Shown: in pieces, positions 27,813-32,267 of the stretch
How positions within the stretch are numbered: the first letter of the stretch is position 1
How the letters are laid out: every line of letters begins with the position of its first letter
Assembly: GCA_023132875.1 (NCBI GenBank)
Contig: JAGLXN010000008.1
Location: 1-53,752, forward strand
Direction: 5' to 3'
Length of the DNA: 53,752 nt
Source of the DNA: Candidatus Parcubacteria bacterium
GTDB lineage: Bacteria; Patescibacteriota; Minisyncoccia; JAHIHE01; JAGLIN01
Position numbers and translations under genes: made by a program
The notes under the pieces: generated by a model
Databases searched by the model: none
Seen by the model: the letters and a program-made list of their open reading frames with translations, nothing else
What the model was told of the DNA's origin: nothing

Positions 27813-27834
27813 ATATTTATGTTAAAAAATTAAT

Positions 27835-29403
27835 TTAATATGACCACGATGACGATTCACACGGAACACCGTTATTATCGCCATCAAGTTTATGAATATC
27901 ATTATTAATTCCACCGCAAATATCAAAAATTCTTTGAGCATCTACTTGATTTCCAAAATCAGAACAATTATAAAAATCATAAGAACAAATCACATAATTC
28001 CCAAAATCCACTCCATTAATCGTATAAACCAAATCCAAATCATAACCAATAGTTGACTCTAACAAAACCTTAGTTCCAACATCGCCATTTGGTACAAGCT
28101 GATAAATATCTATTTGTCCATCCACTCTTACCAAATCAGAAACAATAAAAGAATCCATTTCACTTTGGCTAACCGTCAAAATATCTTCCCATTTCAAATG
28201 ACCATAGCTTTCAAAAACTTGCGGATTCAGAACTAATCTTTTAAATTGTTTTCCGTTTTTATATTTTACAATATAAACATCCGGATTGTTGCCAGTTTTT
28301 ATTACTGCCCCTTCTGGAATTGGACTATTAGGATTATTTTCATTTGTTTCGGACTCGTGTTGTGTCGTAGTTTCTGTATTATCTTTATCGTTAGTTTCAA
28401 CTTGACATGATTGACTTAGGACAGGATTGCCGTCAATACAATTATCAGGAGAAAATGAAATAATAGATCTTGTTTGTTTCTCGTCTATGCATTCGCTCCA
28501 GTTTGAATATATCCATGAAGTGCAAATAGTAAAAGTTGGTGTATCGGGATGAGGTTCAGTTAAAATCGGTAAATAATTTATATAATTTTCTACGGTAATG
28601 TCATCATTTTTGTCATAAATCGTTGAATCAATAACATTTACATCTTGAGTGTCCCAATAATTTTCAGAAGCTGAAAAAGTATTAATGCTATCAGATCCTA
28701 ATTTTAAAACTATATCATTCATATTAATAAAGGAATTATATTTGATTATGACTTCTGATGAATCTTGACTCTCAACTATTATGTAGAAATTCCAGTAGCC
28801 TGTATTGTTAACTGAATGTCCTTTGTAGAAAAAATTATTTTTTATGTTAACCTTGATATTATTGTCAATATATATTCTAAAACCATAAGTATTTATAAAC
28901 TTATTATAACTAATATCAATATTATCAGTAGGAAACCAAATCGTTGATTGTTCAGCTAAATTAGCAAGTTCAGAATATTGCAAATAGAAATGTCCACTAC
29001 GATTACCACCTGGCCAAAACATAAGTCCATTTTTAACTGTACAATACTTTAAATCTAAAAATGCATTTTCATATCCAGTAACATTAAAAAAATCAGAATT
29101 ACTCCCACCATCAAAAATAATTTTATTGTCGACAACTCCATGGGCATAAATTATTCCATTCAATAAAAACATGTCGCCATTCGTAGGTTTATTGATAGTC
29201 ACACCCGACTCAATTGTCAATGTAACTCCTGTTGGAATTTGAACTGTATCTATTACAATATAAGGACTATTATTTAATGTCCAAGTTGTGTTAGAATTAA
29301 TAATTCCGCTAACTTCTGTTTCTGCGTTTGCTTGTCCTGCTAACATAAAACAATTAAATACTGCTAAAACCAAAATTGATAAAAATGTAAATTGTTTTTT
29401 CAT
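27835..29403 (-). CDS. Secreted modular protein: beta-helix-like region, Cys repeat and Excalibur Ca-binding domain
   Basis: Signal peptide; TTWTLNNSPY..VQIPTGVTLTIESGV beta-helix opening; CTSWIYSNWSEC; C-terminal YNCSDF..DIHKLDGDNNGVPCES. Confidence 0.75.
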   Translation of the reverse strand: MKKQFTFLSILVLAVFNCFMLAGQANAETEVSGIINSNTTWTLNNSPYIVIDTVQIPTGVTLTIESGVTINKPTNGDMFLLNGIIYAHGVVDNKIIFDGGSNSDFFNVTGYENAFLDLKYCTVKNGLMFWPGGNRSGHFYLQYSELANLAEQSTIWFPTDNIDISYNKFINTYGFRIYIDNNIKVNIKNNFFYKGHSVNNTGYWNFYIIVESQDSSEVIIKYNSFINMNDIVLKLGSDSINTFSASENYWDTQDVNVIDSTIYDKNDDITVENYINYLPILTEPHPDTPTFTICTSWIYSNWSECIDEKQTRSIISFSPDNCIDGNPVLSQSCQVETNDKDNTETTTQHESETNENNPNSPIPEGAVIKTGNNPDVYIVKYKNGKQFKRLVLNPQVFESYGHLKWEDILTVSQSEMDSFIVSDLVRVDGQIDIYQLVPNGDVGTKVLLESTIGYDLDLVYTINGVDFGNYVICSYDFYNCSDFGNQVDAQRIFDICGGINNDIHKLDGDNNGVPCESSSWSY

Positions 29404-29428
29404 AAATTTATTTATATTAAAAAATTAA

Positions 29429-30628
29429 TTAATTACTACTCAATTCTAGCTGACTTATTATAAAATTTAATCTTCTAAGTAAGTCGTCATAAGTCAAAAT
29501 ATCAATAACATTTTTATATTTTCTTCTGACAACTTCAAAGTCGTTTTTTTGATCTTTACTAAGTCCGGCATCTCTTCCTATAATAATCAAACCGCATGGA
29601 TTAATTATTTTTATACTAAATTTTTTTGGTAGACTATCTTTGTATTTATTCGTTAAATATTTCTCTCCATTTTCACCCCATCTATTTAAGTTAAATATAT
29701 ATTTTTCAACTTGCATCACTGTTCCAGATAAATCTCTTAATGGTATATAATTATTTCTGTATAGACCTTTTGTAATTATTAGATTTTTCCCAGGTAGCTT
29801 TATTTCTACTATGTCAATATTTCCTCCAGCATCTACCAATAAATAATCTAATCTCTTGTTTTTCTTGTGGCTAGATTTTACTGGAGCTTCATCAAAGACA
29901 TCTATATATTTAGGATATAAAAGTAAAATTATCTTGTGCATTTCTTTTTGCCATTGTCTTTCATTATATTTATCTTCGTTTTTTAACATTTCTTTTAATT
30001 CTTCGTGGACAATTCTATATTTTTCTAATTCTCCTTTTTGTAATAGCTTAGATATGTCGTTACCTTTTGTACTGATTTTTTTATTCATATAGTCTTTGTA
30101 TTTTTCTTCACCATCAATTGTTGTATCAAAATAATTTTTCAAGACAATGCTAAGCCGAGCATTAACATACTTTTCGAGTTCACCTTTTTTTGGAAAGTCA
30201 TCTAGCATTTTGTTAAATTCTTCTTTTGGAATATGATTATCTTTTTCTCCTCCAATATAAATATCTTCGTTGAGTAGTTTATCAATTTTTCTAAAAATTG
30301 ACACTCCTCTTGATGCAATAAAAAATTTCCAAGTAATCTTAATATCTTTGTAAATAAATACATCTTTGCTTATATCCAACTTATTTCTATCAATTTTATA
30401 ATAATTATCTTCTACTAGTTTGCCAAAAATGAATCTAGCTTGTCCGTCGTAATCTTCCTCTAAATTTTTATCTAAACTTTGTTCAAATAAATCTTTTCTT
30501 TTGAATACAAAAGTTTTCTTTATCGGTATTGCTTCTTGTTTTCTTAGTTTTTTAAAAATCCACTCAGGATTACCGACAGGTTCGTAAATAAGTATCAACA
30601 GATTATTTTCTACTCTAAATTCAATCAT
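29429..30628 (-). CDS. sduA: Shedu anti-phage nuclease (DUF4263)
   Basis: NERQWQ..LLLYP, DYLLVDAGGNIDIVEIK (PD-(D/E)xK-like), LSGTVMQVEKY, GLIIIGR and IDILTYDDLL motifs. Confidence 0.85.
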   Translation of the reverse strand: MIEFRVENNLLILIYEPVGNPEWIFKKLRKQEAIPIKKTFVFKRKDLFEQSLDKNLEEDYDGQARFIFGKLVEDNYYKIDRNKLDISKDVFIYKDIKITWKFFIASRGVSIFRKIDKLLNEDIYIGGEKDNHIPKEEFNKMLDDFPKKGELEKYVNARLSIVLKNYFDTTIDGEEKYKDYMNKKISTKGNDISKLLQKGELEKYRIVHEELKEMLKNEDKYNERQWQKEMHKIILLLYPKYIDVFDEAPVKSSHKKNKRLDYLLVDAGGNIDIVEIKLPGKNLIITKGLYRNNYIPLRDLSGTVMQVEKYIFNLNRWGENGEKYLTNKYKDSLPKKFSIKIINPCGLIIIGRDAGLSKDQKNDFEVVRRKYKNVIDILTYDDLLRRLNFIISQLELSSN

Positions 30629-30663
30629 ACTTTTTAAAATTATCTTTAAAATATTACTCTCAC

Positions 30664-30839
30664 AAAAAAAGCTTTCCGCCAGCTAATAGCCCCTTTCGGT
30701 GCTATCACTATACCCTTTCGAGTATAGACTCGTCCTACAAAGTACTGGCTAGAAAGCCATTTCTATATAGGACGAGATTTAAACCATACTCCAAGCAAAA
30801 AGCCCAAAGGTTAGGTTACTAAATTGTTACTCATTTTCT
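30664..30839 (-). ncRNA. Candidate structured leader RNA upstream of sduA
   Basis: Closing stem GCUUUUUGC/GCGGAAAGC, 9-bp CUCGUCCUA/UAGGACGAG stem, two GAAA-capped hairpins and a U7 tail; G-U wobbles favour the minus strand. Confidence 0.6.
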
Positions 30840-30845
30840 ATTAAA

Positions 30846-30873
30846 ATAATATCACACCAAACAAAGAAGTCAA
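30846..30873 (-). promoter_or_regulatory. Sigma70-type promoter for the leader RNA and sduA
   Basis: TTGACT-16 bp-TATTAT with extended TG. Confidence 0.65.
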
Positions 30874-30900
30874 TCAAAAATAAATATAAAACATAGAAAA

Positions 30901-30950
30901 ATAGCTATAGCCTCTTTCAGTGCGGCCGCATCAAAAGAGGCTATAGCTAT
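30901..30950 (-). terminator. 17-bp perfect inverted repeat, probable terminator
   Basis: ATAGCTATAGCCTCTTT/AAAGAGGCTATAGCTAT with central TGCGGCCGCA; T-run follows on the minus strand. Confidence 0.6.
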
Positions 30951-31049
30951 AATTTGTATTAAGATTTACATGTTTGGAGTGTCAAACAAAGCGTGATAAG
31001 ATTGAAATGCGTAAATTCTATGTATATTAGAATTATTTAGAGAGATTAA

Positions 31050-31084
31050 ACAAAAGGCTCCAGTCAGGAGACTGGAGCCAACAA
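31050..31084 (-). terminator. Intrinsic terminator after secF
   Basis: GGCUCCAGUC-UCCU-GACUGGAGCC followed by UUUUGUUU. Confidence 0.75.
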
Positions 31085-31106
31085 ATAAAAAGTAATAAAT
31101 TTCCAA

Positions 31107-32267
31107 TTACTTTTGCCTTCTCAAGCTCCACTTTTGCCAAGTTACAAGAAGCGGGCTGGCAATGAATATAGATGAATAGGTTCCAGCGGTAATTCCGACT
31201 ATAAGAGCGACAATGAAATATTTTATAGTTTCTCCGCCGAATAAATAAAGAGTAATAAGAACTAGAAGCGTGGTAAATGAAGTGTTTAACGATCTTATTA
31301 AAGTTTCGTTCACGCTTTTGTTTACGACTTTTTCAAAATCATCAGATCCAGATCTTATTAGATTTTCACGAGTTCTGTCAAAGACAACAATCGTATCATT
31401 TACGGAATAACCAAGAATAGCAAGAAGCGCGGCCACAAAAGGAATGCCAACTTCAACGTTATATAAATGACCCAGAACAGCAAAAACGCCCAAAGTAATT
31501 ATGATATCATGAAAAAGGGTTATCGTCGCGATAATTCCATATTTAAAACTTGAAACCGGCCGCGACACTTTTCTGAAAGCCCATCCTATATAAAGAACAA
31601 TCGCGATTAAAGCTATGGCAATCGCGATTACGGCAGTTGACTTTAGTTCATTTCCAATTACGGGACCGATTGAATCAAATCTTTTTTCTTTAATGTTAGA
31701 ACTTTCTTCATTAGCCGCAATAGCGGATTCTAAATCAATCTCTTCGCTTTCAATATTTATTTCTTCGCCGGAATCCGTAATAACTTCAATTCCGCTTTCT
31801 TCAGCTTCATTTGTTTCATTTATTATTTCAACTTCATCCGCCGCCATTGCTTTTCTTATACCGCTAATCGGCTCGTTCTCAATACCTATATCTTCTTCAT
31901 TTATATCTTCGATGCTTCCTTCTGAATTATTACTATTTTCTTCTTCCCTGCCTTCTCCTAAAATTGCAAGATCCAGAGCCTTAATGATTTCCTGATGAGT
32001 ATTTTCATCAACATCTTTAAATCTTAATAGAACGCTATCATTGCCAGAGAATTGAACATTAACTTCTCCTAAATTCAAATCTTTCAGCGCCTCTTTTATT
32101 TCTTCGCTATTCAAAGTTTCCTCTTCAAAACTAAATTCCATCAGGGTTCCGCCAGTAAAATCAATTCCCAGTCTTAGCCCCCAAACCGAAAGAGCCGCAA
32201 TGCTTGCAGAAATTAAAATTAGTGAAAACGCAAACCAAATTTTTCTTCGTTGGATTATTTTTAGCAT
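31107..32267 (-). CDS. secF: Protein translocase subunit SecF
   Basis: GIDFTGGT, IGPVIG.EL, LFHDIII, GYSVNDTIVVFDR.RE and TYSSIFIASP motifs. Confidence 0.96.
   Translation of the reverse strand: MLKIIQRRKIWFAFSLILISASIAALSVWGLRLGIDFTGGTLMEFSFEEETLNSEEIKEALKDLNLGEVNVQFSGNDSVLLRFKDVDENTHQEIIKALDLAILGEGREEENSNNSEGSIEDINEEDIGIENEPISGIRKAMAADEVEIINETNEAEESGIEVITDSGEEINIESEEIDLESAIAANEESSNIKEKRFDSIGPVIGNELKSTAVIAIAIALIAIVLYIGWAFRKVSRPVSSFKYGIIATITLFHDIIITLGVFAVLGHLYNVEVGIPFVAALLAILGYSVNDTIVVFDRTRENLIRSGSDDFEKVVNKSVNETLIRSLNTSFTTLLVLITLYLFGGETIKYFIVALIVGITAGTYSSIFIASPLLVTWQKWSLRRQK

What the first reader, a model, noticed from the sequence alone, without database searches (positions are those of the whole stretch)
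30664..30873. Promoter-driven multi-stem RNA with a 7-codon uORF directly upstream of a defence nuclease
Seen on the minus strand: promoter; uORF MSNNLVT (30811-30834); closing helix GCUUUUUGC (30795-30803)/GCGGAAAGC (30671-30679); helix CUCGUCCUA/UAGGACGAG; two GAAA-tetraloop hairpins (30709-30726, 30686-30705); a U7 tail ending about 35 nt before the sduA start. An internal GCCAGU can pair with the distal GCUGGC, giving a pseudoknot or switch that competes with the closing helix. It matches no riboswitch I recognise. Inference: an unannotated cis-regulator or antitoxin-like RNA controlling a toxic nuclease.
Basis: partly seen in the sequence, partly recalled or inferred. Interest (0 to 1): 0.72.

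Follow-up and report, generated by a model that had tools for sequence, protein, structure and literature searches.

The report
LOOT RNA leader before Shedu gene
The structured RNA upstream of the Shedu nuclease gene belongs to the already catalogued but uncharacterised LOOT RNA family, which a survey here indicates is a leader found across ultra-small CPR bacteria in front of many different accessory genes and built like a transcription on/off switch.

Summary
The RNA is real, but it is not a new family. Window 30685-30817 (-) matches Rfam RF03000 (LOOT RNA) over the full model, at 68.7 bits against a gathering score of 46.4.

Not conserved, so rejected: the 7-codon uORF and the "closing helix".

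The window comes from a Patescibacteria (CPR) genome. A strict pattern scan of species-representative genomes found about 117 LOOTs across many CPR lineages, several per genome.
- The gene downstream is co-oriented in 94 cases against 5. The median gap is 37 nt.
- The downstream genes are very heterogeneous: restriction-modification methylases, small membrane proteins, zinc ribbons, mobile-element genes. SduA appears only in this window.

Three features are absent from the Rfam model:
- a covarying 12-pair helix between upper P2 and a 3' tail, followed by a U-run, which looks like a terminator;
- a competing local hairpin that is also conserved;
- in about 20% of members, complementarity between a P2 strand and the start-codon region.

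P1 carries a motif resembling the 11-nt GAAA tetraloop receptor.

Best reading: a cis-acting attenuator leader with an unknown trigger. No transcript data could be obtained.

The parts
30846..30873 (-). Sigma-70-like promoter match: -35 TTGACT, 16-nt spacer, TG-extended -10 TATTAT
   Evidence: Consensus scan. Conserved in L003 and L004. No transcript data, so the transcription start is inferred.
30663..30817 (-). Complete LOOT RNA including the 3' tail helix and U-run (the extended model made here)
   Evidence: Model R1, 84.6 bits, E = 3e-17, full length. The Rfam RF03000 match covers 30685-30817 at 68.7 bits against a gathering score of 46.4.
30782..30817 (-). P1 hairpin. Its internal loop, CCUAAC (30810-30815) / GUAUGG (30784-30789), resembles the 11-nt GAAA tetraloop receptor
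   Evidence: Rfam alignment. The helices covary. The position 6/7 pair is A-C in 70, C-U in 33 and C-C in 11 of 114 sequences. The receptor consensus CCUAAG/UAUGG comes from PMC2615604 and bioRxiv 10.1101/2024.03.11.584472. Docking is inferred.
30777..30781 (-). A-rich linker between P1 and P2 (UAAAU; AAAA in the family consensus)
   Evidence: Rfam consensus. Linker counts.
30729..30776 (-). P2 long hairpin. Lower stem CUCGUCCUA/UAGGACGAG, apical hairpin GGCU-UUCU-AGCC
   Evidence: A G-C to A-U compensation is seen in L004. Family median is 11 consecutive pairs in the lower stem. The apical hairpin is maintained in 97% of members.
30744..30764 (-). Segment of upper P2 (AGAAA.GGCUUUCU.GCCAGU) that pairs with the 3' tail and U-run. 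It is mutually exclusive with the apical hairpin
   Evidence: Duplex energy -26.6 kcal/mol against -6.6 for the local hairpin. Constrained fold. 12 covarying pairs, 94.3% of cells paired.
30708..30727 (-). P3: 8-bp hairpin with a GAAA tetraloop
   Evidence: 96.6% of cells paired, and 7 of 8 pairs show changes on both sides.
30685..30706 (-). P4: hairpin with a GAAA loop (family: GCAA in 53, GAAA in 49)
30671..30684 (-). 3' tail AGCUGGCGGAAAGC, the partner of upper P2. It lies outside the Rfam model
30664..30670 (-). U7 tract directly after the tail helix. It can pair with AGAAA of P2 (the A-tract/U-tract layout of intrinsic terminators)
   Evidence: Sequence. U-run lengths in the family are 3-7. 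Termination itself has not been shown.
30629..30663 (-). 35-nt spacer to the sduA start codon, 100% identical in L004
   Evidence: Alignment A1. The scan found no promoter match in it.
29429..30628 (-). sduA (399 aa), the Shedu nuclease and first gene downstream
   Evidence: Pfam SduA_C, E = 2e-36. PADLOC SduA PDLC00388, E = 5e-150, full length.
27835..29403 (-). 522-aa gene that moves together with LOOT and sduA
   Evidence: Window 30954..27832 aligns with L004 5675..8778 at 84-87% identity, in a different genomic neighbourhood.
30901..30950 (-). 25-bp palindromic hairpin followed by a T-run at the upstream edge of the shared module (likely an insulating terminator)
   Evidence: Inverted repeat I1. 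Conserved with compensatory changes in L004. Start of the shared block.
30811..30834 (-).
   Evidence: The ATG is deleted in L004, and the frame is broken by an insertion in L003.

Best explanation
The element (30663-30817, minus strand) belongs to the LOOT RNA family (Rfam RF03000) and serves as the 5' leader of the sduA operon.

Structure:
- A promoter about 25-30 nt upstream drives transcription.
- The RNA folds into four hairpins. P1 carries a motif like the 11-nt GAAA tetraloop receptor. P2 is long. P3 and P4 are capped by GAAA.
- A 3' tail follows that Rfam does not model.

Proposed mechanism:
- The tail and the U7 tract are complementary to the upper half of P2, including its A-rich 5' side.
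- When that long-range helix forms, it gives the A-tract / helix / U-tract layout of an intrinsic terminator, 35 nt before sduA.
- When upper P2 stays folded as its own small apical hairpin, the tail has only a 4-bp hairpin. In that case polymerase should read through into sduA.
- The leader therefore most likely acts in cis as a transcription attenuator or switch that sets how much sduA operon mRNA is made.

Other family members add or substitute a translational version. In these, the 3' strand of lower P2 can pair with the region just before the start codon.

Shown here: family membership, the helices and their covariation, the mutually exclusive conserved structures, and the position and orientation relative to genes.

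Inferred: termination and read-through, tetraloop docking, and the existence of any trigger. The trigger itself is unknown.
For: Membership:
- Rfam LOOT, 68.7 bits against a gathering score of 46.4, full model.
- All 18 pattern-found loci that were tested pass the Rfam threshold at 60-100 bits.

Tail helix:
- RNAalifold predicts it unprompted.
- 12 pairs, 94.3% of cells paired, and every pair shows changes on both sides. For example, columns 79-178 are CG in 50, UA in 49 and UG in 15 sequences, with none broken.
- For the whole structure, 94.1% of cells are paired against 70.5% when shuffled (0 of 500 shuffles reach it). With slid partners the figure is 37-48%.
- Frequent G-U pairs place the pairing on this RNA strand.
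- Duplex energy with the true partner averages -27.5 kcal/mol against -17.1 with mismatched partners, p = 3e-53.

Competing structure:
- The local apical hairpin is present in 97% of members, z = -1.9 against shuffles, with 80 distinct stem/loop combinations.
- The two nested conformers are nearly equal in energy, mean difference +3.7 kcal/mol.

Cis position:
- The downstream gene is co-oriented in 94 cases against 5. Upstream genes split 39 against 47.
- The median distance from the U-run to the start codon is 37 nt.
- The 3' strand of lower P2 pairs with a site ending 0-4 nt before an ATG in 22 of 112 true partners, against 1% of mismatched ones. This is rare when the U-run is 6 or longer.

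Linkage in the window:
- LOOT, sduA and the next gene move together into another genomic context, L004.
Against: - No transcript evidence of any kind could be obtained. There is no start site, no 3' end and no read-through data.
- The downstream genes share no pathway. That is unusual for a metabolite riboswitch and leaves the trigger unidentified.
- About 70% of members show neither pairing to the start-codon region nor an 'anti-tail'.
- The tail helix and lower P2 might coexist as a static pseudoknot. In that case the U-run would be a plain, possibly leaky, terminator of a stable small RNA. Pseudoknot energetics and geometry could not be computed.
- A terminator whose 'loop' holds about 60 nt with two hairpins is atypical.
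Conservation at the pattern positions is therefore by construction, and the sample is partial.
Confidence: 0.57

Rival explanations
1. LOOT is a stand-alone, trans-acting small RNA gene, which is how Rfam types it. It has its own promoter and terminator. The tail helix plus U-run simply ends the small RNA, and the adjacent gene is a neighbour or a target.
For: - Promoter-like site upstream and a helix plus U-run at the 3' end.
- Several copies per genome.
- Rfam type 'Gene; sRNA'.
- In the window the U7 tract and a 21-pair potential helix predict efficient termination.
Against: - An independent gene would not be expected to show a 94:5 co-orientation with the next gene while upstream genes split 39:47.
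- A median gap of 37 nt leaves no room for a separate promoter and leader. No promoter match was found in the window's 35-nt spacer.
- The complementarity is to the start-codon region of the gene in cis. It is specific to each locus and sits in a strand that is buried in an 11-bp stem.
Confidence: 0.15
2. LOOT is a constitutive structural leader. It folds into one compact shape (pseudoknot plus tetraloop-receptor contact) that stabilises or insulates the mRNA 5' end and dampens expression through a fixed, leaky terminator, without sensing anything.
For: - The downstream genes are heterogeneous and suggest no common ligand.
- Tertiary-contact motifs (a receptor-like loop and GNRA loops) point to a rigid fold.
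- If lower P2 and the tail helix coexist, the fold would be far more stable than either nested conformer.
Against: - Selection maintains a local apical hairpin that cannot coexist with the tail helix.
- Some members carry 'anti-tail' segments (energy at or below -16 kcal/mol in 20% of true partners against 7.6% of mismatched ones).
- Some members carry copies of the start-codon region within P2. These only make sense if pairings alternate.
Confidence: 0.2
3. One reading: a dedicated regulator or antitoxin-like RNA for the toxic Shedu nuclease, using a 7-codon uORF and a closing helix.
For: - LOOT sits directly upstream of sduA here and in the 80%-identical homologue (L004-L006), which lies in a different genomic context.
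- The spacer to the sduA ATG is 100% conserved between them.
Against: - Only 1 of 113 LOOT-downstream genes is SduA.
- SduA homologues at 63% and 54% identity lack LOOT.
- The window's closest LOOT relatives (L118, L093) precede unrelated secreted proteins.
- The uORF and the closing helix are not conserved.
- There are no repeats of the type III antitoxin kind.
Confidence: 0.03
4. LOOT marks a cassette junction of mobile elements. On this view it is a promoter-leader module that spreads in front of new genes, or a site downstream of which genes are exchanged, and the RNA structure is secondary to a DNA-level role.
For: - Near-identical LOOTs precede unrelated genes in related genomes (L113, L131, L161, L186).
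- The LOOT-sduA module sits in two different neighbourhoods.
- LOOT heads operons containing serine recombinases, a Rep protein, and superinfection-immunity, Ltp and RhuM genes.
- One RNA-labelled contig shares the 3' half of L125's LOOT up to the U-run and then diverges.
Against: - No recombinase is consistently adjacent, and there are no flanking target duplications.
- Covariation with abundant G-U pairs is strand-specific, so it is an RNA signature.
- Mobility of the module is compatible with the cis-regulator model rather than an alternative to it.
Confidence: 0.05

Closest known systems
LOOT RNA motif, Rfam RF03000 (from the 224-motif survey, Nucleic Acids Res 2017, PMC5737381)
   Same: - Full-length match above the curated threshold.
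- The same four hairpins, with GNRA loops on the last two.
- The same conserved CCUAA / GNAUGG / AAAA / GAAA positions.
   Different: - The Rfam model stops about 20 nt short. It lacks the tail helix and U-run and types the family as an sRNA, whereas position and orientation point to a 5' leader.
- My recollection that the family was known only from metagenomes and has no assigned function is from memory. The paper's supplement was not available, and no later functional paper was found in the library searched.
Riboswitch or attenuator expression platforms (terminator/antiterminator, and sequestration of the ribosome-binding site)
   Same: - A conserved structured domain upstream of co-oriented genes.
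- A helix plus U-run that competes with a local hairpin.
- A variable downstream part that pairs with the start-codon region in some members.
   Different: - No ligand or coherent regulon is known.
- The terminator's 5' arm lies inside the conserved domain, about 60 nt away, with two hairpins in between.
- No binding or switching has been demonstrated.
GAAA tetraloop / 11-nt receptor tertiary contact (group I introns, RNase P, some riboswitches; consensus CCUAAG/UAUGG, PMC2615604)
   Same: - The P1 internal loop is CCUAAC/UAUGG in the window, matching 10 of 11 positions.
- A GAAA hairpin (P3) is present in the same RNA.
   Different: - The G-U closing pair of the receptor is replaced by A-C (70), C-U (33) or C-C (11).
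- Whether docking occurs within one molecule, between molecules, or at all is untested.
GEMM-I c-di-GMP riboswitch (comparison from my own knowledge)
   Same: A leader RNA stabilised by a tetraloop-receptor contact that precedes a very diverse set of genes, including surface and mobile-element genes.
   Different: No sequence or model similarity: the E-value scan of the region returns only LOOT. The helix arrangement is different, and no second-messenger link is known.
hok-type mRNA fold-back control in type I toxin-antitoxin loci (comparison from my own knowledge)
   Same: Long-range, mutually exclusive pairings in one transcript that hide or expose the translation start. Many LOOT-downstream ORFs are small hydrophobic proteins (44 of 113 have an N-terminal hydrophobic stretch).
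   Different: No antisense RNA partner. The downstream genes also include 600-900-aa methylases. The conserved domain is 5' of the gene, not spread over the mRNA.

Membership tests
LOOT RNA (Rfam RF03000) | Covariance-model score at or above the curated gathering score, over the whole model | tested here: met
   68.7 bits against 46.4, model positions 1-121 of 121, E = 7e-11 in the whole window.
LOOT RNA (Rfam RF03000) | Four-hairpin architecture, with GNRA tetraloops on the 3' hairpins | tested here: met
   The Rfam alignment and an independent minimum-free-energy fold agree. P3 and P4 both carry GAAA.
LOOT RNA (Rfam RF03000) | Helices supported by covariation among homologues | tested here: met
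   In 114 sequences, P1 is 93.6/94.5% paired and P3 96.6% paired, with many changes on both sides. Shuffled and slid controls are far lower.
Riboswitch / cis-regulatory leader | Located in the 5' leader of co-oriented genes | tested here: met
   94 co-oriented against 5 opposite downstream, and 39 against 47 upstream. Median gap 37 nt.
Riboswitch / cis-regulatory leader | Mutually exclusive alternative structures that include a terminator or a mask over the ribosome-binding site | tested here: met
   The tail helix plus U-run competes with a conserved apical hairpin. Pairing to the start-codon region is found in about 20% of members. All of this is in silico.
Riboswitch / cis-regulatory leader | Functionally coherent set of regulated genes that points to a ligand | tested here: not met
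   57 Pfam families among 113 first genes, none in more than 4 of them. The theme is accessory, defence and mobile-element genes, not a pathway.
Riboswitch / cis-regulatory leader | Direct binding of a ligand or factor that shifts the structure | not testable with these tools
   Needs in-line probing, SHAPE or binding assays.
Intrinsic (Rho-independent) terminator | Stable G+C-containing helix immediately followed by a U-run | tested here: inconclusive
   The local hairpin before the U7 tract has only 4 bp, and the scan does not call it. The long-range helix with upper P2 is 12-21 pairs and abuts the U7 tract. Such a branched terminator is unusual.
Intrinsic (Rho-independent) terminator | RNA 3' ends at the U-run in vivo or in vitro | not testable with these tools
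   No usable RNA reads were found.
11-nt GAAA tetraloop receptor | Internal loop 5'-CCUAAG-3' / 5'-UAUGG-3' | tested here: inconclusive
   The window has CCUAAC/UAUGG, 10 of 11 positions. In the family the G-U position is A-C, C-U or C-C. The other receptor positions were fixed by my search pattern, but they are also upper-case in the Rfam consensus.
11-nt GAAA tetraloop receptor | A GAAA tetraloop partner that docks into it | not testable with these tools
   GAAA loops are present on P3 and P4. Docking needs structure determination or probing.
Leader-peptide (uORF) attenuation | Conserved short ORF in the leader | tested here: not met
   The ATG is deleted in L004, and the frame is interrupted in L003.
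Type III toxin-antitoxin antitoxin RNA | Tandem direct repeats upstream of the toxin gene | tested here: not met
   No direct repeats in 30550-31150.
Shedu defence (SduA), the downstream gene | DUF4263/SduA nuclease domain | tested here: met
   Pfam PF14082, E = 2e-36. PADLOC SduA, E = 5e-150 over residues 1-397.

The most novel reading that the evidence does not exclude
LOOT is a riboswitch-like leader class specific to Patescibacteria (CPR). It senses a still-unknown cellular signal or factor. Through a long-range pseudoknot or terminator helix, and in some members through masking of the start codon, it switches on a regulon of mobile-element-borne defence, restriction-modification, superinfection-exclusion and cell-surface genes, including this Shedu operon.
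Probability: 0.35. Interest if true: 0.8.

Novelty: new member of a known kind. Interest (0 to 1): 0.58.

Why it matters
Patescibacteria (CPR) make up a large share of bacterial diversity, yet almost nothing is known about how they regulate genes.

If LOOT is a cis-acting switch, it would be a widespread regulatory RNA specific to this lineage. It would govern accessory, defence and mobile-element genes, and it would be a ready marker of transcription-unit starts in these poorly annotated genomes.

In practical terms:
- The Rfam entry would need a 3' extension (the tail helix and U-run), and probably a change of type from sRNA to cis-regulatory.
- The extended model and the two competing helices make the function directly testable by termination assays with compensatory mutants.

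For this window specifically, the finding is not a new RNA family and not a Shedu-specific device.

Tried and rejected
- **uORF attenuation.** Rejected because the uORF is not conserved.
Rejected by comparing true with mismatched partners.
- **Antitoxin-type repeats.** None found.
- **Shedu-specific association.** Rejected.
- **Fixed transcription start at the LOOT 5' end.** I suspected a conserved TAcAAT -10 box 7-8 nt upstream. A position-by-position count showed only AT-richness. Hexamers resembling a -10 box were spread over 2-30 nt upstream: 30 of 118 fell in the expected slot against 23 in a control slot. I make no such claim.
- **Viral contigs.** Two pattern scans gave 75 loci, of which only L012 is a real LOOT.
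- **LOOT arrays.** The extended model finds one LOOT per 8-kb locus apart from L185, so there are no arrays.
- **Transcript evidence.** Four run searches and three read-layings gave nothing usable. The window sequence occurs only in cold-seep and marine-sediment DNA metagenomes.
- **Occurrence outside CPR.** Two pattern hits with non-CPR labels (Bacilli, Cognatishimia) are chance matches: P3 has 3-4 of 8 pairs and R1 gives no hit. For L133, one of the records labelled 'Gammaproteobacteria', the named homologues of a neighbouring protein are Levybacteria, WWE3 and Gottesmanbacteria. The label is therefore probably wrong. The other such labels were not checked.
- **U-run length against start-codon pairing.** With a cut at 4 or fewer U the split is not significant (p = 0.42). 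Only the depletion among U-runs of 6 or more is visible (1 of 17 against 38 of 95).
Full report
**1. What is at the coordinates.**

All coordinates are on the minus strand.
- A sigma-70-type promoter match lies at 30873..30846: TTGACT, 16 nt, TATTAT, with an upstream TG.
- A strongly structured segment follows. The 186-nt stretch 30660-30845 folds at -62.4 kcal/mol, z = -4.9, with 0 of 200 shuffles as good.
- The downstream gene is a full-length Shedu nuclease: Pfam SduA_C E = 2e-36 and PADLOC SduA E = 5e-150.

**2. It is a known RNA family.**

A scan of the whole window against Rfam 15 gives one hit above threshold. Window 30685-30817 (-) matches RF03000, LOOT RNA, at 68.7 bits against a gathering score of 46.4, over model positions 1-121 of 121.

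The family comes from the 224-motif survey (PMC5737381). Its supplement was not available here. No paper in the searched library assigns LOOT a function. One methods paper mentions only its unusual covariation pattern.

**3. Organism and local context.**
- The same protein and gene order are found on a MAG contig (GCA_030630745.1).
- The closest SduA homologues carry the names Pacebacteria, Staskawiczbacteria and Patescibacteria.
- The DNA is found only in cold-seep and marine-sediment metagenomes.
- The window is therefore a CPR/Patescibacteria genome, roughly 32% G+C.

LOOT lies between secF and a block of genes: sduA, a 522-aa gene, a 291-aa gene, a sigma70_r4/HARE-HTH protein, a DUF8128 protein and a TraG/TrwB-like ATPase.

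The unit 'hairpin - promoter - LOOT - sduA - 522-aa gene' (window 30954..27832) recurs at 84-87% identity in another genome, next to a zeta-toxin gene and a PIF1 helicase gene (L004-L006). The module is therefore mobile.

SduA homologues at 63% and 54% identity have only 28-57 nt upstream and no LOOT.

**4.
- *The uORF.* In L004 a 15-nt deletion removes its ATG. In L003 a ~157-nt insertion with terminal inverted repeats splits it. It is not conserved.
- *The 'closing helix'.* GCUUUUUGC/GCGGAAAGC is possible in the window (-14.8 kcal/mol). Across the family it is no better than mismatched partners: -6.7 against -6.1 kcal/mol.

**5. Family survey.**

A strict 22-base pattern was scanned over one genome per species. 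About 17 chance hits were expected.
- About 117 are genuine: P3 has 6-8 of 8 pairs in 117.
- All 18 loci tested against Rfam pass the threshold at 60-100 bits.
- The labels cover Levy-, Gottesman-, Curtiss-, Roizman-, Shapiro-, Doudna-, Yanofsky-, Falkow-, Magasanik-, Morani-, Nomura-, Staskawicz-, Taylor- and Harrisonbacteria, Saccharibacteria, Paceibacteria and Minisyncoccales.
- Some records are labelled 'Gammaproteobacteria'. For one of them, L133, the named homologues of a neighbouring protein are all CPR. The label is probably an artefact.
- Several genomes carry two copies on different contigs, and L185 has two copies 1.9 kb apart.
- The model built here finds no further copies within the 8-kb loci or in the window.
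- One real LOOT occurs in a viral-collection contig (L012). It sits in an element next to a tRNA gene that carries a serine recombinase, a terminase and a type I restriction-modification system.

**6. New structural features.**

*(a) A tail helix outside the Rfam model.*
- In every case the Rfam match ends about 20 nt before a conserved tail. The tail, together with the following U-run, is complementary to the upper half of P2.
- On a MAFFT alignment of 114 LOOTs, RNAalifold picks this helix unprompted.
- Counting gives 12 pairs, 94.3% of cells paired, with changes on both sides at all 12. For example, columns 79-178 are CG 50, UA 49 and UG 15 with none broken. Columns 76-181 are AU 64, GC 41 and GU 7.
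- For the whole structure, 94.1% of cells are paired against 70.5% in shuffles (0 of 500 reach it). With slid partners the figure is 37-48%.
- An alignment-free test agrees: duplex energy averages -27.5 kcal/mol with the true partner against -17.1 with mismatched partners, p = 3e-53.
- In the window the pairing is AGAAA.GGCUUUCU.GCCAGU with GCUGGC.GGAAAGC.UUUUU.

*(b) A competing local hairpin.* The same P2 segment also forms a local 4-6-bp apical hairpin.
- It is maintained in 97% of members, z = -1.9 against shuffles, p = 4e-21, with 80 different stem/loop versions.
- It cannot coexist with the tail helix.
- The two nested conformers differ by only +3.7 kcal/mol on average.

*(c) A receptor-like loop in P1.* The P1 internal loop CCUAA(A/C)...G(C/U)AUGG matches the 11-nt GAAA tetraloop receptor CCUAAG/UAUGG. 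The exception is the G-U position, which is A-C in 70, C-U in 33 and C-C in 11 sequences. P3 carries GAAA. Docking is inferred, not tested.

*(d) Variable downstream parts.*
- In 22 of 112 members the 3' strand of lower P2 is complementary (energy at or below -14 kcal/mol) to a site ending 0-4 nt before an ATG. Only 1% of mismatched partners reach this. Equivalently, an exact copy of 10 nt or more of the 5' strand of P2 sits at the start codon in 17 of 115 members, against 4 of 1114 mismatched pairs.
- In about 20% a segment just after the U-run is complementary to the tail.
- The window has neither feature, and it has the longest class of U-run, U7.

**7. Position relative to genes.**
- The gene 30-330 nt downstream is on the same strand in 94 cases against 5 (p = 2e-22). 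Upstream genes split 39 against 47.
- The median distance from the U-run to the start codon is 37 nt.
- This is the signature of a 5' leader. It is not what an independent small-RNA gene would show.

**8. What the leader precedes.**
- The first genes are short, with a median of 164 aa. 44 of 113 have an N-terminal hydrophobic stretch.
- They fall into 57 Pfam families, none with more than 4 members. These include DNA methylases of restriction-modification systems, DUF4352, zinc ribbons, DUF2726, trypsin-like proteases and SNase. SduA occurs only in the window.
- Co-oriented following genes include serine recombinases, type III restriction subunits, RadC, superinfection-immunity proteins, Ltp, RhuM and a rolling-circle Rep protein.
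- The common theme is accessory, defence and mobile-element genes, not a metabolic pathway.
- Near-identical LOOTs precede unrelated genes in related genomes.

**9. Most likely mechanism.**

LOOT is a cis-acting leader. The tail helix with its flanking A-rich and U-rich arms has the layout of an intrinsic terminator. The terminator's 5' arm lies inside the conserved domain, and the apical hairpin of P2 is the competing, antiterminator-like structure.

In the window the terminator-type platform would gate read-through into sduA. In other members, masking of the start codon by the 3' strand of P2 adds or replaces this.

- Shown: the helices, their covariation, their mutual exclusivity, and the gene-proximal orientation.
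- Inferred: actual termination or read-through, tetraloop docking, and any trigger.
- Confidence: I put about 0.57 on this.
- Main rival (about 0.2): a static, compact leader with a fixed leaky terminator.
- Rfam's reading, a trans-acting small RNA (about 0.15): it fits the promoter and the U-run but not the 94:5 orientation, the short gaps, or the locus-specific complementarity in cis.

**10. Limits.**
- No RNA data could be obtained.
- Pseudoknot energetics were not computed.
- Promoters outside the window's close relatives are not defined.

**11. Verdict.**

The element is a new member of a known but uncharacterised family.

The value lies in what the survey adds about LOOT: its distribution across CPR, a missing 3' helix, competing conserved structures, and a leader position in front of accessory and defence genes.

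Noticed in passing
L003:86-242 (a relative of window 30817-30823): A ~157-nt insertion sits between the promoter and LOOT in an otherwise identical locus. It has terminal inverted repeats (GGCTCAAGCAAAAATAAT / ATTATTTTTGCTTGATCC) and a duplicated TTAG. It looks like a miniature inverted-repeat transposable element.
   Followed up: partly
window:30901-30950: A 25-bp palindromic hairpin with a GCGGCCGC core, followed by a T-run. It is conserved with compensatory changes in L004 and marks the upstream edge of the mobile LOOT-sduA module. It is probably an insulating terminator.
   Followed up: partly
window:31028-31088 and L004:4390-4443, L004:5516-5576: The secF terminator hairpin (GGCTCCAGTC..GACTGGAGCC) recurs at 82-85% identity at two intergenic places in the unrelated locus L004. 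This suggests a dispersed hairpin repeat of the REP type.
   Followed up: no
window:32325-32435 and L004:3360-3469: A ~110-nt stretch of the 260-nt secD-secF intergenic region is 79% identical, in inverted orientation, to an intergenic stretch in L004. The fold is only mildly better than chance (z = -2.5) and there is no Rfam hit. It remains unexplained.
   Followed up: partly
window:22209-26623: Downstream of the Shedu block lie a sigma70_r4/HARE-HTH protein, a DUF8128 protein and a TraG/TrwB-like coupling ATPase with a zinc finger. This suggests that the region between secF and the PALP gene is an integrated mobile or defence island.
   Followed up: no
L150:1711-6170: LOOT heads a co-oriented run of four genes: a 215-aa gene, a 217-aa gene, a rolling-circle Rep (REP_ORF2-G2P) and a large serine recombinase. 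Here it leads the core genes of an integrative element.
   Followed up: partly
L012:41-11803: This is the only LOOT in the viral collection. It lies in an element next to a tRNA gene that carries a serine recombinase, a terminase and a ParB-methylase. It precedes a membrane-anchored trypsin-like protease, a Hypoth_Ymh protein and type I hsdM/hsdS genes.
   Followed up: partly
L185:63-212 and L185:1924-2074: Two LOOT copies lie 1.9 kb apart on one contig, each in front of its own ORF. Their P1, P3 and P4 are nearly identical, but their lower P2 stems differ.
   Followed up: no
L105, L124, L126, L129, L133 and other loci labelled 'uncultured Gammaproteobacteria' or 'Bdellovibrionales': About 20 LOOT-bearing MAGs from one bulk submission series carry non-CPR organism labels. 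For L133, the named homologues of a neighbouring protein are Levybacteria, WWE3 and Gottesmanbacteria, so the labels look wrong.
   Followed up: partly
L125:5176-5263 (run X11): A 203-nt contig from a wastewater run labelled as RNA matches the 3' half of this LOOT exactly, up to the end of the U-run. It then continues into unrelated sequence. This could be a sister locus with a different downstream gene or a read-through transcript. Depth is too low to tell.
   Followed up: no
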